Below, in pieces: positions 17,001 through 62,924 of a stretch of DNA of 64,000 nucleotides; the first letter of the stretch is position 1, and each line of letters opens with the position of its first letter. Made by a program: the position numbers and the translations under genes. The stretch lies in assembly GCA_040954595.2 (NCBI GenBank), contig CM082578.2, positions 2,586,831 through 2,650,830 of the forward strand, written 5' to 3'. Source of the stretch: Balanoglossus misakiensis (taxonomy: Eukaryota > Animalia > Hemichordata). The notes beneath the pieces were generated by a model. That model was not told the DNA's origin, did not search any database, and saw nothing but the letters and a program-made list of their open reading frames with translations.

Positions 17001-17737
17001 AGCCGGGACCCCTTTCAGAATCTTTGAAACCTATTTTTAGCGAAACAGCATTGTGATCTGTTCTAACAGTGGGCCTTATGTCAGCGGAATGAACGCTGGC
17101 AAGAAGCTGCTTTGAAATCAGCCAAAAATCTATTCTACTTGCTAGACCCAATGTAACCTGTCGCCAGGTGTATTGTAGCGTATCAGGATGCAGTGTTCTC
17201 CAAACATCACACAGCGTAAAAGACTTAGTGAGGTTACAAAGTTTTTTAGACCGCACATAATAGCTCTTAACCCCACGTCTATCAATATTGACATCGAAAA
17301 CAGTATTGAAGTCCCCACCAATAAGGATATAACCTTCGGGTGAAGCGTTTTTGTGTACGAAGCTTTTCAGAGAAGTCAGGAACGCTTCTCTTTTCGCTAT
17401 GGACATTCGGTGCGTACACATTTACAATTGTGAACACTTCATCATCAATCTCGACAACGACGAGCAATTTTCTGCCATCATATGAACACTTAGTATGCCT
17501 TATTGTACAGTTTAGACGCTTGTCAAACAGAATTGTGACTCCTTTACTGTGGTTGGTACCAAAGGAGTTGGCAATGTGCCCTTTCCATTCAAAACTGATT
17601 TGAGTGGAGAGTTTTTCGTCCCAGTATGTCTCTTGCAACAGTACAATGTCTGCTTTTTGTTCTCTTGTCCATTTGAAAACCTGTTTCCGTTTTTGTGACT
17701 CTCTCAGTCCTCTGCAGTTCAGAGACAGAAAATGCAT
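14014..17737 (-). pseudogene. LINE ORF2: APE endonuclease + reverse transcriptase + C-terminal zinc-binding motif
   Basis: APE motifs LSLNCRGL, LLQET, NVYAPN, GGDFN, RIDFW, TDHN. RT motifs WRPISLLN, GIRQGCPLS, QLADD. C-terminal CEVC...HFLFDC. Disrupted by a frameshift near 17400 and in-frame stops at 16642 and 16402. Confidence 0.95.
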
Positions 17738-17814
17738 AAAGTGATATATCTAAATCTGAACGCAAGTAAGAAAACTATAGTTTAAGAGCTTACAGGAAGA
17801 AACAGTCTGCATTC

Positions 17815-18616
17815 TCATCTTCTTCTTTGCCCTTGGACCTTCTTTCTTTTCTTCGCTGCTTTCTTCGCTTTGGTCTTCGCTACCATCGCTTTCCTAAACG
17901 CGTCTGACGCCGCCGAATCTTCTTCCAAATCTTCCGTCTCTTCGTCCGACAGCAACGTTGAAGACATGTCTGTTGACGTACTGACGTGTTTGCGCTTTGT
18001 GTCACTGGGCGTGGCAGTAACCGTTGACGGTACAGATGTCCGGGACTCGGCTACGTAATCGGTGATCTTTTGCTGCTTGGCCTGGTGTGGTACCTCGGAT
18101 GCCTTCGACGGAATACTTTGCCTCGATTTCACACTTTCTGTTGCAACTGTCGCAGCAGCTGGATTCTCTGTGTGTGCAGCATTGTCGGCCTGTACGTCAC
18201 TGTCTTGACTGATTGTCACCTCTTTCGTATGTAAATAGCTCCAATTATGCATACTTGTGCAGTTGGCGCGAATGTGTCCACTCTTCTTACAAAGCCTGCA
18301 TACCACCTGATTGCTGCAATCTGACTTCAGGTGGCCTTGCTGGAGACAGTTGAAGCAAAATGACTTGCCATAACTATCCATCTGGGTGTTAGCTTCTTCC
18401 TTCCTTTCTCTATACAAGAGGTTGCAAATAAAGCCATCTATTTTTATTTGCCAGTCCGGCGGGGTTGGTTGACTAAGTTTGTTGACAAAGACAAAGCGGT
18501 CTCCATTATCAATATTCGTCAATTTCCCGTCGATTCGCCATTTCGCTTTCACTATTGATCTCACCTGTATACCAATTTCCTTGAGTTTCTGTCTTATGAC
18601 TTCGTCACTCACTGAC
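17815..18616 (-). CDS. LINE ORF1 (gag-like, two CCHC zinc knuckles), N-terminally truncated
   Basis: CFNCLQQGHLKSDC and CRLCKKSGHIRANC knuckles, GDRFVF motif and a basic C-terminus. The predicted start lies outside the TSD. Confidence 0.88.
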
Positions 18617-19085
18617 AAGCTCCATGATGGCAAGACTATCAAAGATAGTAAACACAAATTGCCTGGAAGTGTATGGTATAATTAAATCATACCACAAACC
18701 TCGTACTGAAGTCATTTGGCCCACAAGCAGACATACTGCCCAAAATGTCCCAATGTGTCACATTGGCTCTCTATCATGATAATACATGTAATGCCATATT
18801 TTCAAAATCATTTTTCAAAATCGTTAATACACATGTAACACTACTGTTTCTTTTCACAGCAAACTATTGCAGCATCTCGACATGGCCTGCAGACAAGATC
18901 TGTACAGTATGGAACAGGCTGTAGTTAACAAGGGATACATGGCTCAGTTAGTGGAAGTTCAACAGATGAGAGGAGCAGAAGGTGGAAATAAATTTCACGC
19001 TATGCTGCAGTCATTCCTGGAGAAAGACAACAAAGGTACTGGTAGTATTTGTGGAGTAAAATAGTGTCAGAAAAGTTAAGTCATA

Positions 19086-22772: not shown

Positions 22773-25700
22773 TCAATTATATAGGTCCACAATTTTGGTA
22801 TTGTAATTCATCCAAAAATCTTATGATGACATCATCTTGTTAATGATACATTTGATGATTGGTGAATTGCGTTTGACTTTCCACCATTTTGCACAATTGG
22901 CAGTGTATCACCAGCTGACAGGCACCAATTCCAGCCAACTAGAAGAGTTTCTGAATAAAGCCTTATCTGTTGCTATGCAAGTGCCAACAAAATCATCCAG
23001 CACCAGTGAAGCATTGAGTGAGTTGCTGTTACAAGAGCAGTCCAGATTGATTAACAAGTAAGTACAAGTTTATCTCAAGACGCATCTGTCTGGTAGCTTT
23101 GAGTTTGGGGTTTTATGTTCCTGGGATCACCTTGTCCATATTTTGTTTTAATAAAGATCAAAATGGGTAGTTTTGTACTTGCAGGACATCTTATCATAAT
23201 CAAAAAATGTATATTTATAACCGTATGCCTGCTTTGATCTTAAAAGGGACAAAGTCTCTCTCTCGCTGCCCTTTTTCCATTATTTATGTTTGATACAAGA
23301 CACCGTGTACCGGGTACATGTGTGTATGTATAGTGAATAAACGTTCAACCACACACAACTTCCATCCTGTTTGTAGGATATGAGAGTAAAAATCTCACCC
23401 CAATGACTAAACAGTAGAGACTTTGTCCCTTTAATGTGTAGATCTCTGAAAGATATTTACCATACACTGGTATGTTATATCAGAGATGACATATCAGACC
23501 TTTATTCATCACTCAGCTATGTAGCAAAAACCTATTTCAGGTACATTGTAGTTAGAATTCCATCAGTATGATTGTTTTATACCCTTTACTCAACTTATTG
23601 TATATTTCTCTGCTGTTATACATTGTTACAGATGCGAATTACGCTGGTCAACGGCAGGGCTGCTTATTGATTGGCTGGAGCTCCTGGACCCTGAGATTGT
23701 GCAAAGTTGCCCTCAACTGCAACACCAGTTACTCTTTGTCAAGACGCACAAACCCAGAACAGAGGGCAAAGTTCAAAGTTCATGCAGTGCTTATTTGCTG
23801 GCACTGTTGAGCCACCAGAGTAATTGGCAGACTTTGCATAAATGTATCGATTGGTTACTCAAACCAAGGACAGACTCAACCAGGTGAGAAATTCTATCAT
23901 ACTTCTTCAGGTTGATCTTTGTACACAAAACATCTGGTGAATATCTGAAAATCACTAATGCTTCATGTGTAGAATGAATTGCCAACATATCAGACTTAGT
24001 GCTTAATGTAATGTAGAATTTCAATATAAAGTCAAACCTAGAATTTCTTTCACATTTTAGTCACGTACTATGTTTTCACAAAACTAATTAAAAATATTTC
24101 CTCATTTCAGCATTGACTCAACTGCAGCTCTAGACTTCCTGTGGGCATGCATACACATTCCAAAACTCTGGCAGGGCAGAGATACCAAAACACCAAAGGT
24201 AAGAAAATACTAGCTGCATAATTTTATTAGCTAATTGTAGTTTTTCGCCCTTCCAAAACATGGTGTCATTTCCAAGCAGACGACAAGAACGAGGCAAGTA
24301 TGTCACAGAGTACTGCTTGAGCTTGTCTGGTTTGTTGTTTTTATGATCCAAGTTGCGTGAAAAAATTACCTTACACTAAAATGTGGCTGTCGCATGTCGG
24401 TCCAAACTAAAGCGATGATACTCAACAGAATAATTTGTTTACTCTGTGAATAAAAAAAGCCATAATCATATTCGAGCTGACAAAATCTCTCTGAAGTTTA
24501 CAGAAACCAGAGAGTGCAAATAACTTGTGACACCTGCTTGTGTACTCACATCACAAATGTGCTACATTTACAGAAACGTACAGAAGAAGTTATCTTCAAT
24601 CTCTCTGCAAAAGAAGTATGTACATTGACTGACTTCATCCTTGCTGAGCTGGACAACACTTCAAACGACAAGACATCCCTCACCGTAGAAGTCAGAATTC
24701 CCCTTCTGATGAATTATTGTCATGGCAACAAACCAGTCATGAGGGATGTAGTCAATCATCTGTTCTCTAAAATTAACATGAATGGGTAAGAATTTTACAA
24801 ACATCATCTTTAAAAATGTAAAATTGTTTATCACCTTATGCCATTTCCACATGTGTGTTTTTTTTTTTGTAACTAGTCTCTTGGTTTGGCACATGTGCAT
24901 AAGGTGATCATCACCCTTTTTAATTTGCTGCAATGTATTCCTTCCAAATGACAGCTTTAAATGATGTTGACTTACTACCAATACTTATTAGACCATGAGC
25001 CAGTAGGGGTTTACCCCCCCCCCCCCCCCCAATTTTTGAGACAATGTTTTTCTGAAAGCCTATCATATACTGAGTAAAATTCACTTTGTTTGCCATCTGG
25101 GCACCGGGGCGTTTTCGAGTTATTGGCTTCTAAATTATATTGGGTAACGTATGTAGAAAAGCCTAAAAGTGCATATAAATTGACGTAGGGGGTAAATTAG
25201 TCTTGTAAAATACTGTCTCTCTGAATGTATACCTAGAACAACAGGGAAGTATTTGGTATCAAAAGAAAGCTTAATAAACAAGCTTTCCATTAATTACAAA
25301 ATAAAAGTGATATGACAAATCATGACATCATAGTGACGTCATAAGTCAAAATACCCTTACGAAAATGGTGTTCTGTTCACCTATAAATGTGAGGTTTTGC
25401 AAAACACGTCTCTGAGCAATTGTACTGATGAAAACTGTGATGTGTTTGATATCAACAGAAAGCTGATTGAGTAAAGTATCTAATTATTGCAAAAAAATGA
25501 TATAATAATCAATTACGTCATCATTACGTCATACTTCCAAGTACCCTTACCAATTAGTGACTATGATGACAAGTTATTACCCTAGGAGATAGGTGCCTTT
25601 AAATTAAAAAAAAATGGTAAGGAAGGTTTGTGAAGTCCATTCTATGTAAAAAATGGTGCTGATTCCAAAAAAGTCAGTCTTATTGACCCAACCCAAGACA

Positions 25701-26178
25701 AAATTGCCATTTTGGCACTTTTTAACCCAAAAAGGTCATTTTTAGAAAACACTAAAAACACACTGTTTCGTCACACTGGAAGATCTGATGACATATGATA
25801 TGCCTATTCTATGTAAAATTTGCACAGGGGATGGAACCATTTAAATAAGGGAATAGTAATTTCAGAGGTATTGTTAAATGAAATCGGAAACAGGACGAAT
25901 CATGGCAACTTTATGAATACAACCATAGCAAAATTGTAATTAAAGTTGCCAAAGTCTATCATATGGATAAAAAAGACCAACTATTTAAATGAATTTTGTT
26001 CGAACTTTCGAGCCCCTCCTGCTCAAAATTGACCCACCCCTGCAATGTTATCGACTCTCATGTCGCATCGCAGCAGTGTAGTGAGCAAAACTTATAATTA
26101 TCAGATCAATTCGAAACTTTGGAAAGTGAACAAGTTTTGTTTCTCTGTGCTGCAAACTTATTTTGCCAACCGCCAACC

Positions 26179-29100
26179 ATGAGTTTGACATTTTGGTCTT
26201 TCGGCGAAGATGCAGGAAGAGTTTCCGTCAACATTGTGTGCACCAAAGATCAAATCAAAAAATGTCCTTTTGGAAGCGTGATCGCATTGTCAGCTTCCAC
26301 TGAAGATGAAGCAGTTGTGAAGGTGAGCGAATAATAAGGTTGATTTTATTTCATATGTTTGTCACTAGATTTTAACAGTAATGTTTTTTATTTCATATTT
26401 TGCAAACGTTAGTACAGCAGTATTTCTCAAATTTTGAAATTTCCTGTCAAGAAATCTAAAAAATAATTCAATGTCATAAAATGGGATTATGGCGCCAAAA
26501 AATCAAAGGTGTTGGCATCCATACTGTAACTTGTGTAATAAGGCCTGATGCAATCAAGTTGTGAAATCAAGTGTGAGTTTATGGTTGATTTTATTTCACT
26601 CACAGGTTTTCATTTTTAGTGTTTATTTTTATCAAAAAAATGCGAGGTTCGATAGAAAATTATTTTCACAGCTTTAAAAATTTCAAGTAACGAAAATCAG
26701 CTACATCAATTTAAAATTGAGAATTCTGAGAGGATTGGAACAAAGAATATATATAGAAAGTTAGCAATCGGCATACATGTATGACAGAATGCACATGCAC
26801 GTGTCGCACCCAAAATTAAACGTCCATCGCATGTACTTAGCACTGACCCGTTAAATAGATTTGCGCGTCGCCATTAAACTATCAGTCAAAGAAATCATTG
26901 GTCTTGTGGTTACTTATAAGTATTGAGGTTTAGTTACACGTTAAAACGTTCATGATTACGTATAACATTTTGTTCAGATTTTCACGATATTTTCTCGTAC
27001 TTTTGGCGATCGATCTATGAAATGGCCATTGTGACATAAGTGCCTTTCTCACGTGCCGTCAACGCCGCCCCAGCGGCGGTGCTAGGGCGGCGTTAATTTG
27101 TAAGTGCCACGTGTGAAAAGGTGAGAGCGGCCCTGCGCCGCTCTTTTTTTGTGACGGTGTTGAGGGGTGGGACCTGGGTCGGGGCGCCGCACTAAACAGC
27201 GATTCAAATCACGTGTGAACAGAAACACCGCACTAAACGCCGATCTAAACGCACTCTGCCGACGCGGTTTGAGGGGATACAAGTGGCAGTTTCTAATGAG
27301 CTTGCATGTAAAATTACCCCTCTGAAAAGAGCGATGTTTAGCACCTTGCTTAGTCAACGGTCAATTTGCCTTGTTGCTGATGGTCATCAGTAAAATGAGG
27401 AGCCCCAAAACCTACAGGCAAAGCCTTGAGGTAGTCGGAACTTACTGCAGCTGGGGCTCTGCTGAAAAAATTGAGACGCCCAGTGGAAGTGGTAGTGAAA
27501 CTTGTAGCAAAGTTCATGGTGATAATTGCTAGGCAACTAGGTCTTGCCATTGTCTGGCTAAAAATACATCCCTGTGCGTGAATAAATTAAAAACGTCTTT
27601 GTCCCAAGGGACCAACTCAAAGCGTTCCCACATCCCGGTATGCTTTTACTACTAGCATGGAGTCATGCTACTAGTATATTACGCACTGGTTTCAAAGCTG
27701 TAAGACTCACAGGCGGTACTGTAGAAGCGCTTATACTTATAGGATGACTGTACAAAAACTGGAAAAGTGTGGATTTTCTCGGATCTTCCATTTATTTGAT
27801 GTGGAACAACAAATGGGACAAGTGGCGAAATGTGTCCTTGATTTTCAATCGCACCATGAAGCCTATTTGAACCTAATTTGCATAAATGTCCGAGGGGGTC
27901 GTTCTGGCACTTTGACTCATTTTTACCCCCATTGTTTCATCTTTTTGTAAAGAATAATTATTTTTTCCTGGTCGAACCGAAGGATAGATTACGGTATACG
28001 CTGCTTGGGTATAAGTTCAGAGCTACATATACAGTAAACACATCACTGAATCCGCCATTGTGACCTTTAGCCACTCTGCTGTGGACGCATTGAGTGCGGT
28101 GATCCCGTCCCTTTTATACACATGTGAATGCAAAACTATTTGAGTCGCTGATAAGAAATGTTTGCCAACTTTTATAATCCCGAAAAGGGCGCCCTAATCA
28201 TTGCACGTGAGAAAGCCCTTATAGTCAGGCTCCATGTTAATTGAATAATATCTGCCGTATGTGCCAAAACTAGCAGTATTCACGGTAGTCGAGCAACTTA
28301 TGACACTGATGGTAATCTTAGAGAATGTTCATCACAGACACACAAAGAAATTAATTTAAGTGAAAATTATTTTAATTGCTCGTTGTTTTTAAACATTTTT
28401 ATTCAAAACGCACAACTAAACCGCGAAATTCATGCGTACGTATCTCTTCTATGACGTTCGATCAGTACGCGCAGTGTCTTTGTCACGTGATAACTTCGCG
28501 TACGTGAGATCGAGAGCAGACGTTTGGAACGGCAAGCGACACTTCTACGCGTAACCATGATTATTGTGTATTTTTCGGCTTTTCTCTATATTTTCTTTAA
28601 TTTGGGCGATCGATCTCTGAAAGTGCAATTGTGCCGTAGCCAGCATACATGTAGTATCTGGGGCGCCTTGTCAAGGTTGGTCGGTCGGGCGCCCTGTACA
28701 CATGTACGCGTACGCACGCTTGTATGCTGTAGCAGGACGCACAGTGATGTACGTGCGGTAACCTAGGCCACAAACTTGGCACGTGTCGGCCCTATAATTT
28801 ATGCACGCAGAAGCCATTAGTAGGGCTTCCGGGTCATTTTCCTTGATGATATAACACACGAATTCGCTACCTTGTCTGTACTAATGCGTATTGGGGGGGG
28901 GGACCACTTGCAACACGATCTCTTTCATGATGTTTATGTACTTTATTCGCTACGTTGTAAATGATTTTTTTTGTGTTGCACTGCACGTAAAAAATAAAAT
29001 ATCAAACGCAAGGGCCAAGCCCTGTGTTATCTGAATAATTTCAGCCGTATGTTCCAAAACTGGCAGTATTTGCTGTTTTCCAAACATTTACACATTTAAT

Positions 29101-32100
29101 TGCAAAATTCACGCATCACTACGCGTACGCGTACGCCACTTGCTGACCAGACGTACGCGTAATTATGTGTAACTAAACTTCTGTATTACGTGGAACCAAA
29201 CCTCCCGGCCTATTTTGAAAATTGTAAAACCTCTCTGATCTCTCAATTTTCAATCGATTTGGACGGTTTTGGTAGATTATAATTTATACAAGTCATTGAC
29301 AAGAATATAGATAGGCATGCTTTTCTAACTTCATGTATTAGATATCGCCATGAATCCCTACAAAATTTCACAAAATGACGAAGTGCATATATGTCATATC
29401 AAAAACTGTTTCTACCTGGACAGATAAACTAATCAACTAAGCAATTTTGAAAATGTCTGTGTACGAAAAACCTGCATTGTCTGGTCCTTCAATGTGTCTG
29501 TCGAACAAAATCAACTAAATGTTGCACTTTTATTGATTTTACAAATTATCCTTAGCAAATGTTTTGATGTCACTAGTTTTTGTTTTTCTTAACTATATTA
29601 TATAAAGACATCTGATAGAAGAGCACTTACCTGGCCTGGATGAAATGCACATATTCTTGACAATTAATATAATGCTATATTTGTCTACTATTCACAGATA
29701 ACATTCTCCTCATCCAAAGTGCTTGAATATAACATCATGGAGTACCATGAAGGGGATGGGGAGAACCCTTTCAATGAATTGGCATTTATCGATAATGCCA
29801 CTTTGTTTGTGGACAGATACAATGCCATAGTAACCTCCATGGATAAGTCTGTAGACTTGTTTTCCGACAGCGAGGATTCCATGGAGGTTGATGAGATTGC
29901 TCCTGTGCCATGTGGAAGGTAAATATTTTCTGAAGACAGTGTTTCTTGATGTCAAATTTACAACAAAGAGTGTACTCTGCAGAGAAGTTTAATTGTGGTG
30001 GAAGACAATGTGAAAACTAAAGTGAAACAAATGAATTACATAATGGTCAGTTGCAGCATAATGTTATTCCTGTTGCACAAATCAGTTCCACTAGACAAAT
30101 TCAATTTCTGGTTCAATTAGAGCTGTGCATCATTTTGCATTTCCTTTTTAGGGGACCAAGCGCCTGAGGGCGCTTGGTCCCCTTCTGTTATTGCTGGAGT
30201 TTTTCTTCTTTCTTCTTGAGTCGTTTTTTTGCTCCCGTTTTTCTCAAAATCGACGTGGCCTAAGACCTTGAAATTTGGCACGGTGATTGGGGCCCATGAG
30301 TACTGGTGCACCTGCCCTTTGAATTTGTAATTAGTCACGTGACTTGGTGGCTATAATCGAGCGAAATTTTCAAATTGACCTAATTTGCACGTTAATGGGG
30401 GCATGTACATTCTTTTCGCGATTTTTGTAGACCATGTGGCCAAAATCGCCTGTGCCAAATTTCAAGGTCCTAGGCCAAGTCGATTTTGAGAAGAAGATTT
30501 TTGTAATATTTTTCGCATTTTTTGGTGGGCTGAGGACGGACACTGGGGCATCCGACTTTGACCATCATTACGTAATGTTGTGGAGATCCCATTAGTAGGC
30601 TACTCACTTCTGGCGGGTTGCAGTAGTCCATGGAAAATCGGCTGAAATACGTAAACTGACCAGTGATTATTTTCCACGGAATGAATTTTGGGACAACACA
30701 TTATCGGAGTTCAGGCTGTGTTAGGGCGTTTTATTGAATTATGCTGAGTTTGTTAGCTGTTGCCGTTCAAATCTTTCTATCCAGACCCGGCTACACTGGT
30801 TAACATTCAATGTAATGCGGCGGCGGACTTTGACCCTCAATCGCTAATGTGGCCGAAATACATCAGCAGACCAGTGATTTTCTTGCACGAAGGGAGTATG
30901 GTACCAGCAATAATCAGAGATCAGGCTTCGTTGCCGTTCAAAAGTTCCTACTTCAGTCATGACGTTGCAACTGGACGTTCAGTATGGGGTTCGGCCCACA
31001 GGTGGCTGTGGGGGTTATCAGGTCACCCGTAATGGCACGCAGCTTCATGCAGATGTATGGGACCAAAATACTAGTAAGACGCCCGATTCGGGGGTCACCT
31101 GTGACACATGTGTATCTCAATTATGTGCATGCGTAATTGTGGAGTCAATGAAAGGGATGCTAGCGTGGTATTTGTTGCACATGGATCAATTTGAAGTCCG
31201 ATTTTCCTGTCAAGTTATGGGCGACATTATGTGACATTTCACCTACTTTTGCTTAGTGAGCATCCACAGCAGATGCATGCAGCTTTGGCGTTGGGGGTGG
31301 GGGGGGGGGGGCATATACGGATGGGACCATAATGATATACCAAAGGCGGGGTCCCCTGTTGCACCTGCCTAAGTCATTGATTTTGTACATTTAATTGGAC
31401 ACTAACCAACAGGGCGATAGGTGTGGTTTTTGTTCCAGAGGGACGAATGTAAGTGTCAGTTTGTTTTTGCCCAAATGTATAAGTTGATTTGGATGACCTT
31501 TGTCGTACAGTGCCATATCTCAGCCCGTTGTACAGGTGCAGCTTTGGTATTTGGAGGGATGAAACTATCATGAAATATCAAATACAGGGGGATACCTGCA
31601 ACACCTGCTTGATTCATGTATTACGTGCATACCTAATGGTAGGCAAAGTGAAAGGGCTGCAAATGTAGGATTTGTTGCACATGACATAAACAGGAATGAA
31701 CATTTTTTGTCAAATTTTTGGGTGACCTCAGGTTTCCATTGACCTGCTTTCTATATGTTAGCACGCACATCATATATAGCCAGGTGTTTGGAGGGGTAGG
31801 GTAGGACCCTCTGCGTCATGGGGGCCACCTGTAACTTATTCGCGTAACTCATTATCATGGCCATATCTAATTTGACAAACCCAAACAGCGAGGATTTTCC
31901 GTTGTCTTGAATATGAACCAAATAAGAATCCTAATTTTTGGCCCAATTTTTGGGTACCCTCAGCTGACCTTTGAAGTATACTTACTGAAGTACTTACAAC
32001 GTAGAAGTTCACCTTTGATTGTTGTGTTTGTACTTGTAAGACATCCATTTCGGGTGGTTGCCTACTTCCCCATATCTCTACATCCAGAGCAAATACAGCC

Positions 32101-34274
32101 TACGCATTTGAATGGTACAACCCTGAATGGAGTCTAATGGTTATTAACTCTATGATTGGGCCCCTTCAATGCTGCTTGCAGCTTTAATTATTATTTTAAT
32201 TTGAAACAAGACATGTACTTGTGCTTATCACTTTAATGGGTATTTGTCATTGTTCATGTGTGGATAATGGATCAGTATATGTTGGATACATTTATAAATA
32301 ATTACATAGTTGCAACTGAAATTGTTATTGAGACTATCCTTAAGACCATACCAACAAAGTATACATATTAAGTCTTAAGGAGGGTCAAAAACAGTTTCAT
32401 ATAGCAACTAATGTGCTGATTCTCTGACTACAAGAGTACAATAATAGGATACTATGTATATTTAATAAGCACAATAACATTCATATAATACAGTTTGTAT
32501 TTCAAACTAAAATCATCAAAATTGCCCACGGATGAAAAGCTTATGCTTGTAAGAATATAATTATATTTGTCATGATATCACATACTGCACCTTTAACAAG
32601 TGATTCACCTTTTTTTAGCTCAACACCTGTCACCATGGATTGGGAGGAAGAGGAAGACTTGGGGAGGTTTTGGGAAATTGTGCAAATTTTCCGGAAATCG
32701 ATTCTGGAAAAATATGGCAACCACGATCCCCCAAAGAAGGATAGGACATGGTCCGAGGATGCCAGACGAATTATTCAAGACTTCCCAGAGAACAAAAACA
32801 AACTGTATAAATCAAAAAAGGTAAGCATGAAGCATTCTTCTCTCACATACATGTAGGTATGGTTCTCTGTGTCAGTACACTGTGCCATAGTGAGGACTGA
32901 ACCATCATAGCTTTGTATAGCAAACTCTTGCCAGGCAATGAGGTTGTGAGAGAATCTAAGATTTTATTTTGGGGGAAGGTAAGACAACTTTGCTGGCCCA
33001 CCCCTGGTTATAATAACCGTACACTCCCTAACTTTGATGCATGGTTGAAGTTGTAAAGTGAGCTTCAACAATGTATACTGATTTTCAATGTTATGGACAG
33101 CGTGTTCAACTTTTTAAATGCTATCTGATAAAATTTTAACAGAGTTCCCTTTCACGTTCCTTTTGCAGGAAAAAGCATGTGGTATACCAAATGAAAATTA
33201 TTACACCCATATGACAGTGGCCTTGTTTTCTAACCAGTTATTTTCGTTATCTAAAAGGATGGTTAAGTTGTACAATGAGGGTGTACTGAAGGGACTCAGA
33301 AATGCATCAAACATTTGTAAACAAACAATGTTTCAAAATGCCAAGTATGTCCCTGAAGGCACCCTCATTGGTTTTTTGAACCAACTTATAGATCAGAAAA
33401 TAACTGTGCAACAGTTTAAAGAACTGTGTAAAGAAAACAAAACTCAGGTAAGTTTCTTTCAAATTTACTTATATTCATCAGAAGATTATTTATTGGTAAT
33501 CATGTCCTTTGGGAGCCAATTATCTATAGATGTGTAAAGGCCATGAAGAATCTTCTCTATAATACCATATGACTAATGTAGTAATGGTTATTGGAAGCAA
33601 CTGTTGCCAACTATGTGAGTGAGTGCTGCCAGTGTCATGAACAATCTAATCAACCATCTAGTTTTCTTGAGAAAACACTGATATGACCAAGAAATATCCC
33701 TTATGATTGGCATCTTTCTAAAAAGCCTATGTGACATCATCACATCCTTCTCCCATACTTACCATCCTACATGTACGTACTTCCAGAGACTTTCTCTCTT
33801 GTGCTCTACTGTACTTGTCACTAGATTATGAGAAATCCAGCTAACTCACAATTCTTTTGAAAACAGGGTACCATATCAACACATACATGTTTATGTGGAC
33901 CTCATACGGTTGTTTTGGGCTAATGTTGTTTATTTTTATAATTTTTCTTGTCATTTTCCTAATTTGTCACAAAGCTTCTTCTCTGAAATCGTTTACCAAT
34001 GGTGCATGCAGTAAAATGTTGGATGGTGATCCCCATTTGTACATCTCACTGAGCTATGTTGAAAGTCCAGTATGACATAAAACATAACCACCATTTGAAC
34101 ATTTTGCTCAACTTAAAGCTGGAAAAAGGCGAACATGTATCCAACTTGTATTTCTCTATATTATTTCTGCCATGCAAGACTCAACCTTCCAGTAACCTGA
34201 GAGCACAGGTGCAGGAGAAAGAAGACGAAATCAATGTTTTGAAAGAAACCATCAAAAATAATGATGCAGAGAAG
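26179..34274 (+). CDS. Five-exon gene of unknown function carried by the long-TIR element (314 codons, 3' end missing)
   Basis: Exons 26179-26322, 29698-29918, 32619-32820, 33169-33447, 34179-34274. All introns are GT-AG with matching phases (0,2,0,0) and there is no stop in 942 nt. The ATG is in CCAACCATGA context. Confidence 0.72.
27040..28218. mobile_element. PIF/Harbinger-like non-autonomous element
   Basis: Imperfect TIR G(T)GCCTTTCTCACGTGC / GCACGTGAGAAAGCCC, flanked by TAA and TTA. Confidence 0.5.
28655..29024. repeat. Second copy of the 441-955 MITE family
   Basis: Near-identical stretch (TCAAGGTTGGTCGG...GCAGAAGCCATTAG) and the same right end (AATATCAAACGCAAG...CCCTG). Left end not resolved. 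Confidence 0.75.
30149..32188 (+). mobile_element. Helentron/Helitron2-type non-autonomous element (HINE-like), family A copy 1
   Basis: 5' hairpin GGGGACCAAGCGCC-TGAG-GGCGCTTGGTCCCC. 3' sub-TIR TTGGGCCCC followed by stem-loop GCTGC-TT-GCAGC. T-rich target and no TSD. Confidence 0.8.
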
Positions 34275-34479
34275 GTGAGTGTGCAAATTATTGTTGGCGT
34301 CTTTGTCATGTTTATGCAAAATTGTATTTATCTAGTATTCAGAAACAGACCACTACTAGAGGGAAGCATTCATGACACACACTGCCTGATTTGAAAACTG
34401 TAATTAATTAGTTGCAAACATTTTTTTCTCTAGAAAATGTTTAAAATGATAAATTTGTCTTAAGTAGGTCTTTTTAGGC

Positions 34480-35350
34480 AATAAATTGCCAAAAACGCAA
34501 TTTTGACTAGAATGGGGTCAATCAGATTTTTTTTTTACATAGAATGGACTTTTCATATATAATCAGATCTCTGAATATGAAGAAAACAGTTTGTTTTTAG
34601 TTTTTTTTGTAAAAATGACCTTTTTGACCTCAAAAATGTGGCCAAAAATGGCATTTTTGAATTGATTGGGGTCAAAAAGACTGCTTTATGTTTTATAGTC
34701 ACCACTTTACACATAGAATTGACTTTCCATATATCATCAAATCAATCAATATGAAGAGTAGAGTGTGTTTTAAGTTTTGTCTAAAAATGACGTTTTTGGG
34801 CAAAAAATGGTCAAAAAGGTAATTCTGTCTCGTTTGGGGTCAGCCAGACTGCTTTTTTGGTAATATCAACCAAATTTTACATAGAACAGGCATATCATAT
34901 GTCATCAGATCTTCGAATGTGACGAAAACAGTGTGTTTTTAGTGTTTTCTAAAAATGACCTTTTTGGGTTAAAAAGTGCCAAAATGGCAATTTTTTCTTG
35001 GGTGGGGTCAGTCAGACTGCTTTTTTCGTAATATCAACCAAATTTTACATAGAATAGGCATATCATATGTCATCAGATCTTCCAATGTGACGAAAACAGT
35101 GTGTTTTTAGTGTTTTCTAAAAATGACCTTTTTTGGGTTAAAAAGTGCCAAAATGGCAATTTTTTCTTGGGTGGGGTCAGTCAGACTGCTTTTTTCGTAA
35201 TATCAACCAAATTTTACATAGAATAGGCATATCATATGTCATCAGATCTTCGAATGTGACGAAAACAGTGTGTTTTTAGTGTTTTCTAAAAATGACCTTT
35301 TTTGGGTTAAAAAGTGCCAAAATGGCAATTTTTTCTTGGGTGGGGTCAAT
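34480..35350. repeat. About 169-bp subterminal tandem repeats of the long-TIR element
   Basis: GGTGGGGTCA recurs at 35001, 35170 and 35339, with more diverged copies back to about 34500. Confidence 0.85.
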
Positions 35351-37160
35351 AAGACTGACTTTTTTGGAATCAGCACCATTTTTTAAATAGAATGGACTTC
35401 ACAAACCTTCCTTACCAATTTTTTTATTTAAAAGCACCTATCTCCTAGGGTAATAACTTGTCATCATAGTCACTAATTGGTAAGGGTACTTGGAAGTATG
35501 ACGTAATGATGACGTAATTGATTATTATATCAATTTTTTGCAATAATTAGATACTTTACTCAATCAGCTTTCTGTTGATACCAAACATATCACAGTTTTC
35601 ATCAGTTTTCATCAGTACAATTGCACAGAGACATGTTTTGCAAAACCGCACATTTATAGGTGAACAGAACACCATTTTCGTAAGGGTATTTTGACTTATG
35701 ACGTCACTATGAAGTCATGATTTGTCATATCACTTTTATTTTGTAATTAATGGAAAGCTTGTTTATTAAGCTTTCTTTTGATACCAAATACTTCCCTGTT
35801 GTTCGAGGTATACGTTCAGTGAGACAGCATTTTACAAGACTAATTTACCCCCTACGTCAATTTATATGCACTTTTAGGCTTTTCTACATACGTTACCCAA
35901 TATAATTTAGAAGCCAATAACTCGAAAACGCCCCGGTGCCCAAACCCCTACTGGCTCATGGTCTATGGCTCCAGCCAATCAGAGAGCTGGATTCATATCA
36001 AACATATTGTAATTAGGGTTTCGAGACCCTCTGGTCTCGAAACCCTCTTGAAATCGTGTTGTTTTTTATTATTATTCTTCTTCCCACTCTTAAAAACAGC
36101 CGCTATTCGAAGACCGTTGCACCCAATGACTTGAAATTTGGCTCATAGGTAAATCTCAAAGCAAGTAATTTTCTGATCATGTAACTATGGCAACAGGTCA
36201 CATGACCTGGCAGCCATCTTGGATTGAAAGTTTAAAATTGATCTCATTTGCATAAAAAATGACGAATCAAAATTCTTTGAACAAACTTTGTGGACCATAT
36301 GGCCAGGGTCCTATATGCAAAATTTCAATGTTCAAGTCTTTGCCGATTTTGAGGAGATGATTTTTAAAGCATTATTTTTCATATTTTTCAAGACCATTGG
36401 ACCCAGCCTTAGGCCTATACTTTCCATAGTTAAGCTATGGCCACCTAGGATCTTAGATTTATGCCCAATATCTCAACATCCGCTGGGCTGATCAGCTTCA
36501 AATTTATTGTGCAGCTAGCCTACCTTCCAACAATCAGTTCCAACTGGAAAAAATAATATGAAAAATCGACCGATTTTTTTATATTAATTTTTTTATGAAA
36601 TCTATACCTATACGTATTCCACTATAGTTAAGCTATGGCCAAGTCGTTTTGTAGAATTCTGGTTGGTGCAATAGTCCTATCGGCCAGTGTGCAGCATAGG
36701 ACCACAAAAAGAAGCCAAATTAATTCAAGGGTCACCTGTGACACCTGCCTAACTCATTAATTATGTGCATACCTAATTCGAGGCAAACCAATAGGGCTAC
36801 AGGTCTGATTTTTGTTAGACATGGACCAGTATGGGGTCAAATTATCCCCCGAAATTTGGGGTGACCTTGAGTGACCTTTGACCTTCTTCCGCATATCTCG
36901 GCATCCAGAGCAGGTACAGCTTAGGTGTTTGGGTGGATGGTACCAAAATAAGAAGCCAAATTCAAGGGTCACCTGTGACACCTGCCTAACTCATTAATTA
37001 TGTGCATACCTAATTCCAGGCAAACCAATAGGGCTACAGGTCTGATTTTTGTTGGACATGAACCAGTATGGGGTCAAATTATCCCCCAAAATTTGGGGTG
37101 ACCTTGGGTGACCTTTGACCTACTTCCTCATATCTCGGCATTTACAGCAGGTACAGCTTA

Positions 37161-40100
37161 TAGTCAGGTGGAGATTTGAGAAATTGTGACCCCCTCTGGC
37201 ATTTTTTGGTACAAGCAAACCAAATATGTTTTTTGGTCAATTCGACTACGCTGATTTCGAAAATGCCTGTTCCCAAAAGATCTTTTTGAGATAAGAGCCT
37301 CGTTTTGGCAAATCAAATATGGCCGCCAAGGATCGCAATTCTCACATGAATAGCATCAAAGAAATGTTCACGTACCTCCTTAAACAATGAAAATAAACTA
37401 CATGTTTACATCAACAACTTTTTCGGTTGTATAAACACAAAATAGCAATAATAAAACAATAATTATGCACAAATTTGCATATTGTATGAATAATTCGTTG
37501 ATTTTTGGCTACCAAATAATAATAAAGCTAGGTGTAACAGTACATGTACTGAAAACTCACAACCATTGGAAAAAATTACCTTTTCTTTATTTTAATAAAG
37601 GACTTAAACCTTGTTCAAAACAATACTTCAAGTGTGAAGTTCATTTTGAGATAAGAGCCTCGATGTGGCAATTCAATATGGCCGTCTAAAGCCCTGTAGT
37701 GGAGCGGCCAAACCCTAATTTTCATAGCGATTGTGCATTTTGTGATAAAAGCACCAAACTTGGCTCAGATGTGTGTTAATGTGTACTAAACAAATTCAGA
37801 TAGCGAGCCACTAAATATCTGTTGATGAGTTTCCATGGCAACCAATTTTTCAAAATGGCCACCAATACAGATAATTTCACCCACCAAATAACATCTGTGA
37901 ACACCAAAATAAATTTAGATTTCTATATTTGATACAAGGAACTGTGGAAACAATGATTTTCAAAGATATTATGGTTACTAAACTACTTATAGGGGTAAGT
38001 AAGTTATTAAAACACAATTTAACGGCGCAACTTTTAATCCCTTTGTTCTCGGATTAATAGGTGCTCCTCTAGAAATCAAACCATACTGTCTATGGTCAAA
38101 CATTAGGCTAATTGCGATATTTAACTTGCAGTACGTAAATTACACATATGAATCACAACAGTTTACCACCTTAGCTAATGATAATCATATAAACAGATCA
38201 CCGATATATCAGATTTGCACACGGATGTGGGCTTGGCTTACTCGTGACTGGTAAAATTTCCTTATCAACTTGATAGGAGAGTCTACTGCCCGAAATAGAC
38301 GTTGATCCAAACTGAGTCCGCGGTCGTCACGTTTATTGGTCGTCAGACATACACATAGGGCCTCAAACGCAATGCAATCTAAATGGACCCCGGGTAACGA
38401 ACCATGCGAAAATGTCGGCTTTGTTTCGACCACAATCGCGACCGCAGCGTTGACAACGTTTTTTCGGGGCGTTGATGTTTGTCAAAATGCCATAGGAAAT
38501 TTAAGAAACTTAAGTCGAATTGCTGAAACGTTAATAATCGACCATATGTCTTGATACTTTAGATCATGTATCAGTTCCACTCCAGCAATTTTGTCGACTG
38601 TTAACAGAGTTGACCAAAAAATAAATGGTGTCTATGATTCCAAACTCATAATAATTACAGCGGAGGACACAACATTATTTTATTTGTCGAGAATAGTGTC
38701 CATCATGCCATAAATATTGTCAAAAATATGTGTTAATTATAGAAACCCAACTAAATATACAAGCAGTTGGCCTTTAGATTGGTAAATGGAAAAAACAGGT
38801 GTTATTGCAATTTTCTGGGATTAGGTGGCCCAATGCTCCCAACAAGTCACTTGGAATGTACTACCATTCTAATATCTCAATGTGTAATCTGACTTTGCAA
38901 GAGATATTACGGAAAACTTCATTTCATTTAATAGCATGAAGTAAGCGAAATCTTACTCTTTACAGAAAAGCTGTGATCCTGAAGACTTTTGGTGTTTTGA
39001 AGCTTATTTTCACTTTATCATTTTATTCTTTGATTTTGGGGGTTCAAAAATACACAAAATAACATGTCAAAATAGAACTGCTGACTATCATCAAGGTGCG
39101 ATTAAAATTATCGATAACTTGAGCAATACAAAGCACTTCAAGCGACTTCATCAAAACGCTTTCCGAAGGACAAGTATTGGATGAAAAGTTTGAAACAGAT
39201 TTTGATTTGGATTCCTAACATCTATCTATGTACATGCAACCTAGACATAGTTAGTTTCTATAGTAACTTTAACAAACCAATCGACTGTCATGATACTGGA
39301 TTTCTGCCACCATTTTATGGGGAAGTGATTCTTTATTTGCATAAATCATTTGATGAAGATAAAATAGAAAAGCTAGATTCTGCACTGATTCAAACTGGTC
39401 AGATCAATTTATAAGGTTGAGAAACAAGATGCCGTTTTTCCTGGGTTGACTAAATTTGGAATTTTGTTCATCAAAGATATTTTTATGGGGAAAAGAACGA
39501 ATCAACTGAGCTTTCCTTGTTAAACTTTTATCACAAAATGCCCAAATGTTATGAAAATGTTGTTTATGCCAGGCCACTATTATAATATATCTATGGTTAT
39601 ACAGTGTTTTAACTAAGTTTGTTGTAACCGGGGTTATTACCAAACTTGAATTTCTTTAGCGACTGAATCTCGATCCTGTATTTACCCCTATAACTAGTTT
39701 AGTGATGATAAATATTTTGAAAATTACTCTTTGAGCAGTTTCTTGTTTCAAATATTGTAATATGAATTTATTTTGGTGTTTTATAATTGGTATTTTGTGG
39801 GTGAGATTATCTGTATTGGCGGCCATTTTGAAAAAATTGCCATGGAAACTCATCAACAGATATTGTGGCTCGCTATCTGAATTTGTTTAGTACACATTAA
39901 CGCACATCTGAGCCAAGTACGACACCCAAGTGGATTAAACATACATGTATATATGTTGCCTCACTGACACAATCTTCACTTTGCACACAGTATCATATAT
40001 AAAACCGTAATAAAAATACACATTACTCTTTACTTATGAAGAGAAATTGTTGTTAGAGACCGGGTTTCAAAAAAACACCGAGGACGTCGGGCCATCAGTG

Positions 40101-41809
40101 TGCATTCAACGTCTTATAACTAAGCATGAATATATGGTGCTGGCATAATGTGAGTGTGGCCATACGGTGCTTTCGCTATTAATGAACAACTTGTACGTTA
40201 ACAAATGTCAGTTTTGTTGGCAAAAAGTATGTTTTTGGCTTTTCACAACATTGAACATACATTCATAGTTCAATAACTTGTGAATTGTGGACCTAAACGT
40301 TCATACGTTCAATGTTCTGGTGTTTTTTAACGGAGCGGTCGGTCACGATGTTACCAGCGAGCATGTACAGTCTAAACTAAATCCTCGTTGTGTATGTTTA
40401 TTTGTTTGTTAGTTTGTTTGATTTTGTTGTTTTTTACATGCTATTACATACAAATATGAAAAGTTTCATTTCAGTTATTCATTAAAATGCAAACATTTGT
40501 CAAAAAACATATGAATAGACACCTGACAGGCCAAAGTCGTATCTGTAGCTTTCAGTTGTCAATTTTAGCATGACATCATGACTAATTAAGCTAATTTTGT
40601 ATATTTTCCATGCTGCACCTTGTCTGACAAGGTAAACGATTGCATATTTGAATTCCTTGACCCTGAAAACATTGGAATAGACACCTCACTTAACACCGTT
40701 GGCTCTCTTTTGTAGACCCATTGATTTTAGATGGGCGTGTCACCTAATTAACATAAATTAGCATTTTTACCAATTCACCAAATGTTTCTAAATTAAACAA
40801 ATTGTTTAAAAATATTTAAATGAATATAAGAATATGATTTCAATAGACTATTATGGTGTTGACCTGTGATATTGCACCATAATGGCTACAAACAGCGTTT
40901 TCTTTTAGGTATTTTGAAATTATGACGTCACAAATTAATTTGCCATTTTCGACATGAAAACGTGAAAAGAATTTTTGGGAACAGGCAAATTCGAAGTCAG
41001 CGTATTCGAAATATCCAAAAACAACTTGTTCCCAGCTTGTACCAAAAAAATGAATGACATGCTTTTAAAATGCTCATTTTCTGAAATTTCCACCTGGACC
41101 TAATTAACATAAATTAGCATTTTACCAATTCACAAAATGTTTCTAAATTAAAAAAATTGTTTAAAAATATTTAAATGAATATAAGAATATGATTTCAATA
41201 GACTATTATGGTGTTGACCTGTGATATTGCACCATAATGGCTACAAAAAGCGTTTTCTTTTAGGTATTTTGAAATTATGACGTCACAAATTAATTTGCCA
41301 TTTTCGACATGAAAACGTGAAAAGAATTTTTGGGAACAGGCAAATTCGAAGTCAGCGTATTCGAAATATCCAAAAACAACTTGTTCCCAGCTTGTACCAA
41401 AAAAATGAATGACATGCTTTTAAAATGCTCATTTTCTGAAATTTCCACCTGGACCTAATTAACATAAATTAGCATTTTACCAATTCACAAAATGTTTCTA
41501 AATTAAAAAAATTGTTTAAAAATATTTAAATGAATATATGAATATGATTTCAATAGACTATTATGGTGTTGATCTGTGATATTGCACCATAATGGCTACA
41601 AACAGCGTTTTCTTTTAGGTATTTTGAAATTATGACGTCACAAATTAATTTGCCATTTTCGACATGAAAACGTGAAAAGAATTTTTGGGAACAGGCAAAT
41701 TCGAAATCAGCGTATTCGAAATATCCAAAAACAACTTGTTCCCAGCTTGTACCAAAAAATGCCTGACATGCTTTTAAAATGCTCATTTTCTGAAATTTCC
41801 ACCTGACTA
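37161..41809. mobile_element. Non-autonomous TIR element with TAG...CTA ends and 3-bp TSD (Academ-like)
   Basis: TAGTCAGGTGGA / TCCACCTGACTA ends. TSD TTA at 37158-37160 and 41810-41812, confirmed by the uninterrupted sister repeats (GTACAGCTTAGGTGTTTGG). Contains an internal inverted repeat (~37755-37990 vs ~39680-39918). Confidence 0.85.
40742..41809. repeat. 356-bp tandem triplication of the element's right end
   Basis: ACCTAATTAACATAAATTAGC recurs at about 40742, 41098 and 41454, and each unit ends with AATTTCCACCTG. Confidence 0.9.
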
Positions 41810-43272
41810 TTAGGTGTTTGGGTGGATGGTATGAAAATAAGAAGCCAAAATTTAGGGTCACCTGTGATTCCTGCCTAACTCATTAATTATGTGCATACCT
41901 AATTCTAGGCGAACCAAGGGGGCTACAGGTCTGGTGTTTGTTGGATATGTACCACTATGGGGTCAAATGTTTTTGCCCACATTTTGGGTGACCTTGGGTG
42001 ACCTTTGACCTACTTCCTCATATCGCGGCATCCAGAGCAGGTACAGCTTAGGTGTTTGGGTGGATGGAACCAAAATAAGAAGCCCAAATTTAGGGTCACC
42101 TGTGACACCTGCCTTACTCATTAATTATGTGCATACCTAATTCCAGGCGAACTAACAGGACTACAGGTCTGGTGTTTGTTGGACATGGACCAGTATGGGG
42201 TCAAATTTTCCCCCCAAATTTCGGGTGACCTTGGGTAACCTTTGACCTACTTCCGCATATCTCGGCATCCACAGCAGGTACAGCTTAGGTGTTTGGGAGG
42301 ATGGTACCAAAATAATTAGCCAAAATTTAGGACCACCTGTGACACCTGCCTAACTATGTGCATAACTAAGTACACACGAACCAATAGGGCTAGATGTGTG
42401 GTTTTTATTGGACATGGACCAATATAGTGTCAAAATTTTCTGCTCATATTTAGGGTGACCTCACATGACGTTTGACCAACTTTCCCACATCCTACACCCT
42501 GACTAATTAAATATGCACATATCTATCTCCAGGCGAACCAATAGGGCTAGCAGTGTCTCGAAACCCGCTTATTGCTGTTCACAGCTATATTTCTTATTTA
42601 TATCTTAAATTTCTCAGGATAGAACTATCAGTGATTTGAACGAAATAATTATCCAAAAGGACAGGGTAATGACTGAGCAGGTAGGCATAAAATAGTTGCA
42701 CAGATTAGATTGTATTTTTTATACATCAGTGAGGTCTTCATCATGAAATCAAGGCGGTCACATATTGGTTTAGACCTGTCAAAATATTTCAGGCCGTCCA
42801 GTTATGAATATAAACCCTGGCTCCAGCCAATCAGAGACCTGGATTCATACCAAACATATTGTAATTCTAATTTATATTATTGTTATTTTCCTCTTATTTC
42901 TGTCTTGGACCTGGTAATAAGCTTAGCTTGAACGATATTGATTATTAGACCTGATTGGATGTCCTATTTATCTCATTTTCAAATTTCAGATAAATGGCCA
43001 TGATTTCAGCCGCCTTGAAAGGACGCGTTCATCTGACGTTTCCCGAGTTCCAATCTCGCCACCATCTTCTCTTCTTCTCGCACATTCTCGGCTTATTGGA
43101 GTTGCTTCAACCGTACGTGTTCCAGCAGGATACAGAACTACACACAACAATGACATCTTATTTCCACCTCATCAGGGTAAGAACTCACTACACAATTACC
43201 GGGCTATAGTCCTGTAGCCTTTTCACGGCCATCACAAACATTTTTTTCCTTCTGAGTTTGCATCCCCAGTTT

Positions 43273-46200: not shown

Positions 46201-46660
46201 ATTGACCTGCTTTCCATATGTTAGCACGCACATCATATATAGCCAGGTGTTTGGAGGGGTAGGGTAGGACCCTCTGCGTCATGAAATGCTAAATTTTAGG
46301 GGCTACCTGTAACTTACTTGCGTAACTCATTATTATGGCCATATCTAATTTGACAAACCCAAACAGCGAGGATTTTCTGTTGTCTTGAATATGAACCAAA
46401 TAAGAATCCTAATTTTTGGCCCAATTTTTGGATACCCTCAGCTGACCTTTGAGGTAACTGAAGTACTTACAACGTAGAAGTTCACCTTGGTTGTTGTGTT
46501 TGTACTTGTAAGACATCCATTTCGGGTGGTTGCCTACTTCCCCATATCTCCACATCCAGAGCAAATACAGCCTACGCATTTGAATGGTACAACCCTGAAT
46601 GGAGTCTAATGGTTATTAACTCTATGCTTGGGCCCCTTCAACGCTGCTTGCAGCTTTAAT
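43273..46660 (+). mobile_element. Helentron-type non-autonomous element, family A copy 2
   Basis: Highly similar to 30149-32188 with the same terminal hairpins. Expanded by internal duplications (about 208 bp near 43990-44406 and a larger one from about 44390) and by a MITE insertion. Confidence 0.85.
44991..45685. mobile_element. PIF/Harbinger-type MITE
   Basis: 15-bp TIR GGCTGCATTCACAAA and TTA TSD. The empty site CAAGTTATGGGCG is visible in the sister repeats near 31211 and 44544. Confidence 0.88.
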
Positions 46661-46983
46661 TTTATTTGTTCTCTGAATTTTTTTGGGCAAATGTATGAAA
46701 GACTTTTAGTTCAAAAGTGAATCAGTACAAGTACAGACCTCTGGGACCAGAAAATATGTCCTTAATAGACAGGTAATATTCTATTCAAACTGTTACTTTT
46801 GTCTTGAATTTTTATAAACCTCCGTCATGCTACGTTTAACTGTAAAGAACAAGATTTTTATTACTTTAACAAAATCTATAATAATGCCAAAATGTAGGAG
46901 ACAATGCAAGTTACACCGTTTTTTGGGGTGTAATTTGCAAGTTGGCGTATCTTGTGTAACTCAAGTAAGCCCTGAAAACGGAA

Positions 46984-49010: not shown

Positions 49011-49865
49011 CTCTGACCATCATACTGACTGTAATCTTGATTTCCAGCTATTCTCCAAGCATACAAACGCCAGCGACGATTCCGCAGTGGTTCTGGTCTT
49101 GGTCCCTGTGCCCAGATTGTCCGTGGGGAATTCGGTAAAGGCATCGCTGGGGCTACTGACATCTGCTGTAACTGTTGAAACCATGCCTGAGCTGGCCAAT
49201 ATGGTGCGATCACAGTTGCCTGTGCACGCTGCCATTTCACTACATCTAGTACTCTTGGTATTAGGTGAAACGGCGCATTGACAAAGTTGTTGTGTTGGTT
49301 CCAGTCCTGTTGACTTAGAGCGTCTATCCCACTGGACATTGGGTCGAAGAACTGACTGTTGTAAATTTCCAACTGACTGTTGTGCATACTTGCGAACCGG
49401 TCTATAGTATGGGGACCCCATATGCGGTCGATATATTGAAACAGGCCTGGGTGTAGTTGCCATTCGTATTTTGAGTATATTCGAGACAACCTGTCTGCAT
49501 GCTGATTGTCTATTCCAGCTAGATACTTTGCTGTCAGGGTTATGTCTAACTCAAATGCTTCTAGCCACACTGCTGTTGCTAGTTGAGTAAGTTGGGGACT
49601 TGGTCCTCCTAAGTAATTCACATAGGCGGTCGCTGTAATATTGTCTGTCAGCACTTGCACTGTCTTTCCTCGTAATATTGTCCCAAATGACTTCAGAGCC
49701 AGAAGAATGGCCATCAGTTCTCTGTAGTTCGACGGCATCAGACTCATGCGACGATTCCAAAGTCCTGATGCTTCCTGATCCTTGCAGGCTGCTCCCCAGC
49801 CTGTCTGTGAGGCATCTGTTTCTACCTGTGCCTCTACAGGTTTGGTATGTATAGCCCGGCCATTC

Positions 49866-54996: not shown

Positions 54997-55074
54997 TGTA
55001 TTAGTGCGACAAGTGTCGCACTACAACTATCCAACAGTGTATTACTCCGCCTGACTACAGAAACCTGTCCTTAA

Positions 55075-62632: not shown

Positions 62633-62924
62633 TTATGTAATTTCACATTACCATTGGCAAAACACTTTTCTTATGCTTCCGAAAGCAGCTTTATAATAAA
62701 AACATAACAATCATGAAAGAAGAACAAAGCAGATTTTGATAAACACAAAACTTTAATGACTACTGTGTCATGATTATAAACATCCTTATGCAATAAAAAT
62801 ATGAATAAAAACAAGTCCAAATGGTGTTTATTGATTACTATGCTGAATGAATCCCAAGTCAGAGCTATTAGGCTGAAGCCTACAAAAGCCAGTTTACAAT
62901 ATCCCTATAAAGATGAAAGACCCA

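What the first reader, a model, noticed from the sequence alone, without database searches (positions are those of the whole stretch)
24989..35965. Long-TIR element carrying an open, spliced gene of unknown function instead of a transposase
Seen: TIRs of about 0.8 kb with TAG...CTA ends enclose five exons with canonical splice sites and matching phases. They give 314 stop-free codons (MSLTFWSFGEDAGRVSVNIVC...DWEEEEDLGRFWEIVQIFRK...NYYTHMTVALFS...LNQLIDQKITVQQFKELCK...LRAQVQEKEDEINVLKETIK). The peptide is not INTS1, and I recognise no transposase, helicase or RT motif in it. It remains clean while the surrounding INTS1 exons are riddled with lesions, although TEs sit in its introns. No stop-containing exon appears before the subterminal repeats. 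Known: TAG termini with 3-4 bp TSDs characterise Academ elements. Inference: this is an internally deleted large DNA transposon that kept an uncharacterised accessory gene or captured a host gene. It is the best candidate here for an undescribed transposon-borne system.
Basis: partly seen in the sequence, partly recalled or inferred. Interest (0 to 1): 0.78.

Follow-up and report, generated by a model that had tools for sequence, protein, structure and literature searches.

The report
Deleted transposon keeps unknown gene's start
An 11-kb jumping-gene remnant with long inverted ends sits inside a broken copy of the INTS1 gene and carries five open exons with no detected relatives; these are likely the front part of the element's own helper gene, likely cut short by an internal deletion, so this copy is ordinary but its unseen full-length parent may be undescribed.

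Summary
Inverted ends of 834 and 758 nt (18 mismatches in 746 aligned) enclose five GT-AG exons giving 314 stop-free codons, inside an INTS1 pseudogene. No 3-12 bp target duplication flanks the TAG...CTA ends; a flank deletion likely removed it.

Public DNA contigs of one sample add three points. (1) The main contig leaves the window at 34407 and repeat-like contigs join there, so this copy has likely lost an internal segment, which explains the missing last exon. (2) Two nested insertions are absent from those contigs, so they are recent; with arms only 2.4% apart, an open frame needs no selection. (3) Diverged paralogues match exons, not introns, with mostly synonymous changes in exon 3, so the gene is likely real and was under constraint in the family.

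The protein was not identified: Pfam, NCBIfam, PHROGs, PDB, phmmer and folds gave nothing, each exon searched alone. A resemblance of exons 3-4 to the helical part of ParB-type transposon accessory proteins is recalled, not tested. No RNA run was listed. Verdict: a non-autonomous deletion derivative of a cargo-carrying DNA transposon; superfamily open.

The parts
24989..25822 (+). Left terminal inverted repeat, starts TAG; about 86 nt (25012-25097) absent from the right arm; inner part (25633-25822) mirrors one 168-bp subterminal unit
26179..26322 (+). Exon 1 (48 codons), ATG in a Kozak-like context, phase-0 donor; a minor contig skips 26139-26507
27036..28220 (.). Nested short-TIR repeat in intron 1, flanked by AT on both sides; absent from the main X1 contig
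29698..29918 (+). Exon 2 (221 nt), ends in an acidic linker
30137..32187 (.). Nested dispersed repeat in intron 2 (second copy 43257-46667, 94-97% alike); absent from X1 and X2 contigs
32619..32820 (+). Exon 3 (202 nt), predicted helical; diverged paralogues differ mostly at synonymous sites
33169..33447 (+). Exon 4 (93 codons), basic, predicted helical (low confidence)
34179..34274 (+). Exon 5 (32 codons), heptad pattern of a coiled coil, ends at a GT donor with no following exon; weak acceptor
34407..34408 (.). Likely internal deletion junction: the main X1 contig continues with at least 168 other letters, and other contigs join here with letters like the subterminal repeat
   Evidence: tables 7 and 8
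34533..35365 (.). Subterminal tandem array, 168-bp unit, 4.9 copies, 85% matches; overlaps the inner right arm
35208..35965 (-). Right terminal inverted repeat, ends CTA
35966..36014 (+). Right flank starts abruptly inside a dispersed repeat (49 nt, 96% like 42818-42866); suggests a deletion beside the right end
24571..24789 (+). INTS1 pseudogene exon left of the element (human residues 1717-1787)
42990..43176 (+). Next INTS1 exon found (human 1882-1927), with an in-frame stop at 42991-42993

Best explanation
This is likely a non-autonomous, internally deleted copy of a large cut-and-paste DNA transposon that keeps both long inverted ends and the first five exons of what is likely the element's own accessory gene. 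Shown: the ends, the open spliceable frame, the lack of a last exon, a contig that leaves the window at 34407, and paralogues conserved in exons. Inferred: the parent element inserted recently into an already decaying INTS1 copy; a deletion at 34407|34408 removed the rest of the gene and probably the transposase; a second deletion beside the right end removed the target duplication and about 90 codons of INTS1; the ends would still be movable in trans. Inferred with less support: the full protein is a dimerising DNA-binding helper (unknown N-terminal domain, acidic linker, basic helical domain, coiled coil) that would dock on the long ends or the 168-bp repeats; I put about 0.45 on it being related to ParB-type accessory proteins of giant transposons, a resemblance recalled from memory. 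The truncated copy itself is probably not functional.
For: Break at one position seen from both sides: 168 loose letters behind 34407 on the main X1 contig, repeat-like letters before 34407 on X1 and X2 contigs; the first 15 loose letters are not in the window. Exon 5 ends at a donor with nothing after it. Diverged contigs (16 and 19 differences in 114 nt) lie on exon 3 while intron 3 is covered by one contig; 8 of 10 changed codons listed are synonymous against 20% expected. Contig depth on the arms is thousands against about 170-380 inside and 222 on the INTS1 flank in X1 (depth is only a rough guide), as expected if many derivatives share the ends. No conserved host homologue of exon 4 among 1.84 billion representatives. 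Giant transposons that carry only non-transposase genes are described (PMC12477816, passages).
Against: The missing segment could not be read, so a transposase in the parent is not shown; formally X1 could carry an insertion rather than the window a deletion. All contig evidence comes from one sample of one study. Only 40 of 59 difference rows were shown; if all unseen exon-3 differences were non-synonymous, P rises from 3e-4 to 0.03-0.07. The exon-4 paralogue shows 1 synonymous and 4 non-synonymous codons; other exon-4 rows 4 and 3. No ParB motif or family was found in the element. No target duplication.
Confidence: 0.7

Rival explanations
1. The five exons are the 5' part of the transposase gene itself (for example the long N-terminal part of an Academ-type protein), not of a separate accessory gene.
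For: The gene starts 360 nt inside the left arm and is cut before its end; TAG...CTA ends fit Academ (feature recalled; the defining paper was not held); an Academ-related lineage was noted in this genome (e1-10617174, unchecked).
Against: No zinc finger or transposase family in the 5 exons; no 3-4 or 9-10 bp duplication (lengths from PMC10045372).
Confidence: 0.15
2. A Pack-type element captured the front of a fast-evolving host gene with its introns.
For: Multi-exon gene with ordinary introns, near single-locus depth inside, no transposon domain detected.
Against: No homologue found for exon 4 or exon 3, weak for short queries; several diverged exon-matching contigs, and variants lacking exon 1, look like a decaying repeat family.
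Confidence: 0.1
3. The short gene is a working, selected cargo: splicing to the second AG of exon 5 ends it at 282 residues, giving a complete small protein kept by a non-autonomous family.
For: A CAG acceptor at 34190-34192 followed by a stop exists in the window; the frame is clean.
Against: The main X1 contig has G at 34191, which removes that acceptor; exon 5 keeps a heptad pattern and a good donor; the clean frame is expected from youth.
Confidence: 0.05

Closest known systems
Giant non-autonomous DNA transposons with accessory genes in Ectocarpus, and Sola1-1_Ec32 with its ParB-methyltransferase gene (PMC12477816; passages and supplement rows read; FASTA supplements not readable)
   Same: More than 10 kb with nested insertions, long imperfect TIRs, a non-transposase gene inside, presumed movement in trans.
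   Different: Sola1-1_Ec32 has AACCG ends, 282-bp TIRs, a 4-bp duplication, a transposase and a 1104-residue ParB-methyltransferase; here TAG ends, about 750-bp TIRs, no duplication, and no ParB or methylase domain detected in the 314 codons kept.
Academ superfamily (AcademX, AcademH; duplication lengths from PMC10045372 passages; TAG termini recalled, not read)
   Same: TAG...CTA ends and long TIRs in a marine invertebrate.
   Different: No target duplication, no transposase, nuclease or helicase in this copy; curated bivalve Academ elements average 5.6 kb (PMC10294476 passages).
Internally deleted non-autonomous derivatives such as Ds of Ac, and Pack-MULEs (general knowledge; Pack-MULE analogy also in PMC12477816)
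   Same: Ends intact, inside truncated at a sharp junction, ends more abundant than the interior.
   Different: The kept gene has no known family.

Membership tests
Academ | TAG...CTA termini (feature recalled) | tested here: met
   the one other copy of the flanking repeat has CC, not TA, before the junction, so TA likely belongs to the end (n=1)
Academ | 3-4 bp (AcademX) or 9-10 bp (AcademH) target duplication | tested here: not met
   none of 3-12 bp at these ends; may have been lost in a flank deletion
Academ | Academ transposase with nuclease or helicase | tested here: inconclusive
   none in 5 of 5 exons or among long ORFs inside the element; the deleted segment could not be read
Sola1 with ParB-methyltransferase cargo | 4-bp target duplication | tested here: not met
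   same flank-deletion caveat
Sola1 with ParB-methyltransferase cargo | N-terminal ParB domain in the accessory protein | tested here: inconclusive
   no Pfam hit on single exons, no motif in context, no phmmer hit of the spliced product to 1566 ORFs that include 2 phage ParB-like proteins; no animal member was available to compare
Sola1 with ParB-methyltransferase cargo | Helical region after ParB, and C-terminal methylase | not testable with these tools
   resemblance of exons 3-4 is recalled; attempts to fetch an animal member failed; Atlas hit 'DNA methylase family protein' scored 0.87, under the tool's 0.9 lead level
Tc1/mariner-type element with TA duplication | TA duplicated at both ends | tested here: inconclusive
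   reading the ends as GACC...GGTC gives TA on both sides, but one search suggests TA is part of the end; no empty-site joint among the 15 of 62 joints shown
Pack-type element with captured host gene | Cargo matches a host gene outside the element | tested here: inconclusive
   0 hits; the genome is not held

The most novel reading that the evidence does not exclude
The longer allele seen in the public contigs is a still-intact giant transposon with Academ-like TAG ends whose accessory gene joins an unknown N-terminal domain to a ParB-type helical DNA clamp and a coiled coil, that is, a transposon helper in which the ParB nucleotide-binding domain has been swapped for a new one and which binds the element's own long ends and 168-bp arrays.
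Probability: 0.2. Interest if true: 0.62.

Novelty: new member of a known kind. Interest (0 to 1): 0.36.

Why it matters
As it stands this is an ordinary class of object, a deletion derivative of a cargo-carrying DNA transposon, and its clean reading frame is explained by youth. Its value is as a pointer: the gene has no detected family, shows coding constraint among paralogues, and a longer allele appears to exist in the same species with an exact breakpoint to extend from. If the parent pairs Academ-like ends with a new end-binding helper, it would widen the known set of accessory proteins of animal DNA transposons.

Tried and rejected
Protein identity, all on single exons because the spliced product could not be given to the search tools: Pfam best E 0.06-0.3 on 3 of 5 exons, noise; PHROGs best E 0.01-0.8, unknown-function families; NCBIfam 1 weak row; PDB sequences of exons 1-4 best E 0.35; word search exon 4, 0 of 42 candidates, exon 3, 0 of 11; phmmer of exon 4 on 1.84 billion representatives, 0 at E 0.001; viral contigs 0 of 15; phage tblastn none; Atlas exon 4 best 0.89, exon 3 best 0.88, both below recognition level. 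Single-sequence folds: exon 4 pLDDT 52, exon 3 pLDDT 65; Foldseek nothing at E 0.001; wide structural search best Z 5.7, generic helices. Exons 1, 2 and 5 were not searched in the large protein collections. Fishing for an animal ParB-type seed with a recalled motif gave 0, 9 and 36 prokaryotic or viral loci, 2 of them plausible ParB-like proteins; a search from one of them found 0 of 13 long candidates. TIR-tip scan of metagenomes: 3 loci sharing only 24-26 nt within another repeat, rejected. Expression: no RNA holder listed; the contigs laid cover introns and show no exon-exon joints among those shown. Earlier findings by sequence: none for exon 4 or the TIR (33, 63). Rejected: selection on this copy inferred from TEs lying in introns (chance that 2 insertions both miss exons is 0.65). 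Spy-type elements without duplications (mentioned in PMC10294476) considered; their recalled target does not match these flanks. Literature searches found no description of this element or of Academ termini; the library lacks Repbase Reports and the AcademH paper, so absence from print is not shown.
Full report
Scope. No whole genome is held for this window, so the work rests on the window, on public contigs of one sample (runs X1-X3) and on searches with single exons. Earlier unchecked notes on the same genome call it likely an acorn worm; I did not test that.

The element. The left arm 24989-25822 and the right arm 35208-35965 align with 728 matches and 18 mismatches, plus an 86-nt block only in the left arm and a 10-nt block only in the right. 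The ends read TAG...CTA. A 168-bp unit is repeated 4.9 times at 34533-35365 and mirrored once in the inner left arm. No duplication of 3-12 bp flanks these ends; moving both ends in by two bases gives a TA duplication. The right flank starts in the middle of a dispersed repeat whose other copy (42818) has CC before the same letters, which suggests that TA belongs to the end and that flanking DNA next to the right end was lost. In line with that, the INTS1 exons on either side match human residues 1717-1787 and 1882-1927, and the residues between were not found by motif search or by Pfam on 80 stop-free stretches of 28 or more residues (the INT1_R3 match starts at position 48 of 160). This is inference from one reference copy.

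The gene. Five exons with canonical sites and matching phases give 942 nt and 314 codons without a stop. The product has an N-terminal 100 residues rich in beta-branched and aromatic residues, an acidic linker (37% D+E), a basic region of about 150 residues and a heptad pattern in exon 5. Exon 5 has a weak acceptor and a second AG followed by a stop; the main X1 contig lacks that AG. Exon 5 ends at a donor with no exon after it.

The host gene. INTS1 here is a pseudogene: stops at 21681 and 42991, a 7-nt duplication near 56005. The arms differ by 2.4%, the main X1 contig differs from the window at 14 listed places in 2158 nt (0.6%; only rows shown), and 5% of single changes in this frame make a stop, so the chance of no stop is 0.79 at 0.5% drift, 0.63 at 1% and 0.39 at 2% (indels ignored). 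The two nested repeats at 27036-28220 and 30137-32187 are bridged by X1 contigs that lack them, so they are recent, and two insertions miss the exons with probability 0.65.

Evidence for an internal deletion. In one search the main X1 contig covers 33434-34407 and then runs on for 168 letters that lie on nothing in the stretch laid; other contigs of X1 and X2 begin at 34407 with upstream letters resembling the subterminal unit. Both sides break at one place, which fits a window copy that lost the segment between them, including the rest of the gene. An insertion in X1 cannot be excluded. Minor contigs skip 26139-26507 (exon 1) and 26953-29024, so other damaged variants exist. Summed contig depth is thousands on the arms against about 170-380 on the gene and 222 on the flank in X1; the tool warns that this is no copy number, so I use it only as a sign that the ends are far more common than the gene.

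Evidence that the gene is real. Contigs under 90% alike lie on exon 3, and depth rises on exons 3 and 4 but not on intron 3. Of 10 changed codons listed for the exon-3 paralogues, 8 are synonymous, against 20% expected (P about 1e-4). Limits: 40 of 59 rows were shown, one row lies outside the two 114-nt contigs, and if all unseen differences were non-synonymous P would be 0.03-0.07. The exon-4 paralogue shows 1 synonymous and 4 non-synonymous codons, other exon-4 rows 4 and 3. So constraint is supported for exon 3, mixed for exon 4, untested for exons 1, 2 and 5. No RNA run was listed, so splicing is predicted only.

What the protein is. Not identified. Pfam, PHROGs, NCBIfam, PDB, two word searches, one phmmer search, two Atlas searches, two low-confidence folds and three fold searches gave nothing significant. 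All used fragments of 32-93 residues, so these blanks are weak. From memory, exons 3-4 resemble the helical region that follows the ParB-like domain in uncharacterised marine-invertebrate proteins; I held this idea before the look-up. Earlier notes report ParB-methylase genes in Sola-type elements of this and other animal genomes, and PMC12477816 describes one in Ectocarpus (passages; supplement rows). I could not fetch an animal member to test it, and no ParB domain was detected in exons 1-2. It remains a lead at about 0.45.

Mechanism. Shown: intact ends, open frame, truncation point, exon-limited paralogues. Inferred: recent cut-and-paste insertion of a longer element into a dying INTS1 copy, followed by an internal deletion, a flank deletion and nested insertions; movement, if any, in trans; the full protein a dimerising helper that binds the element's ends. 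Confidence 0.7 for the deletion-derivative reading with the element's own accessory gene; 0.15 for the front of a transposase; 0.1 for a captured host gene; 0.05 for a working short cargo.

Comparison with known kinds. Repbase classes non-autonomous elements by duplication length and terminal sequence (PMC4455052, passages). AcademX makes 3-4 bp and AcademH 9-10 bp duplications (PMC10045372, passages); TAG ends for Academ are recalled, as the AcademH paper was not held. With no duplication and no transposase I do not file it as Academ or Sola1, though it works like a non-autonomous TIR element. PMC9587614, PMC4738411, PMC10799480, PMC10294476, PMC5753468 and PMC12973397 were seen as passages only and describe nothing matching this gene. 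The FASTA supplements of PMC12477816 could not be read and may hold the protein needed for the comparison.

Verdict. Real feature, correctly described; an ordinary deletion derivative whose unknown gene and apparently longer allele are worth one follow-up with the assembly. Interest 0.36; new member of a known kind.

Noticed in passing
window 19800-59518: The INTS1 gene spread over the window is a pseudogene copy (stops at 21681 and 42991, frameshift near 56005, about 90 residues missing), heavily invaded by transposons; a working INTS1 presumably lies elsewhere.
   Followed up: partly
window 14017-18681 (-): Long ORFs of a LINE-type retrotransposon (endonuclease, reverse transcriptase, zinc-knuckle ORF1), named by eye.
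   Followed up: no
window 47187-55020 (-): DIRS-like retrotransposon ORFs (gag-like, RT, RNase H, tyrosine recombinase) interrupted by a 777-codon hAT-like transposase ORF at 50183-52513, named by eye.
   Followed up: no
window 57605-58537 (-): Tc1-like transposase ORF of 311 codons.
   Followed up: no
window 30137-32187, 36005-37170, 41800-42450, 43257-46667: A family of dispersed repeats with internal 230-240 bp tandem units and very high contig depth; at least one insertion is polymorphic.
   Followed up: partly
window 37697-39918: Another element with inverted arms of 55-100 nt about 2 kb apart.
   Followed up: no
window 60386-64000: A 200-nt perfect inverted repeat (60606-60805 and 63801-64000) running off the window end.
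   Followed up: no
L010 1723-3204 (-): A 493-residue viral-contig protein with a ParB-like motif in its middle; no long relatives found.
   Followed up: partly
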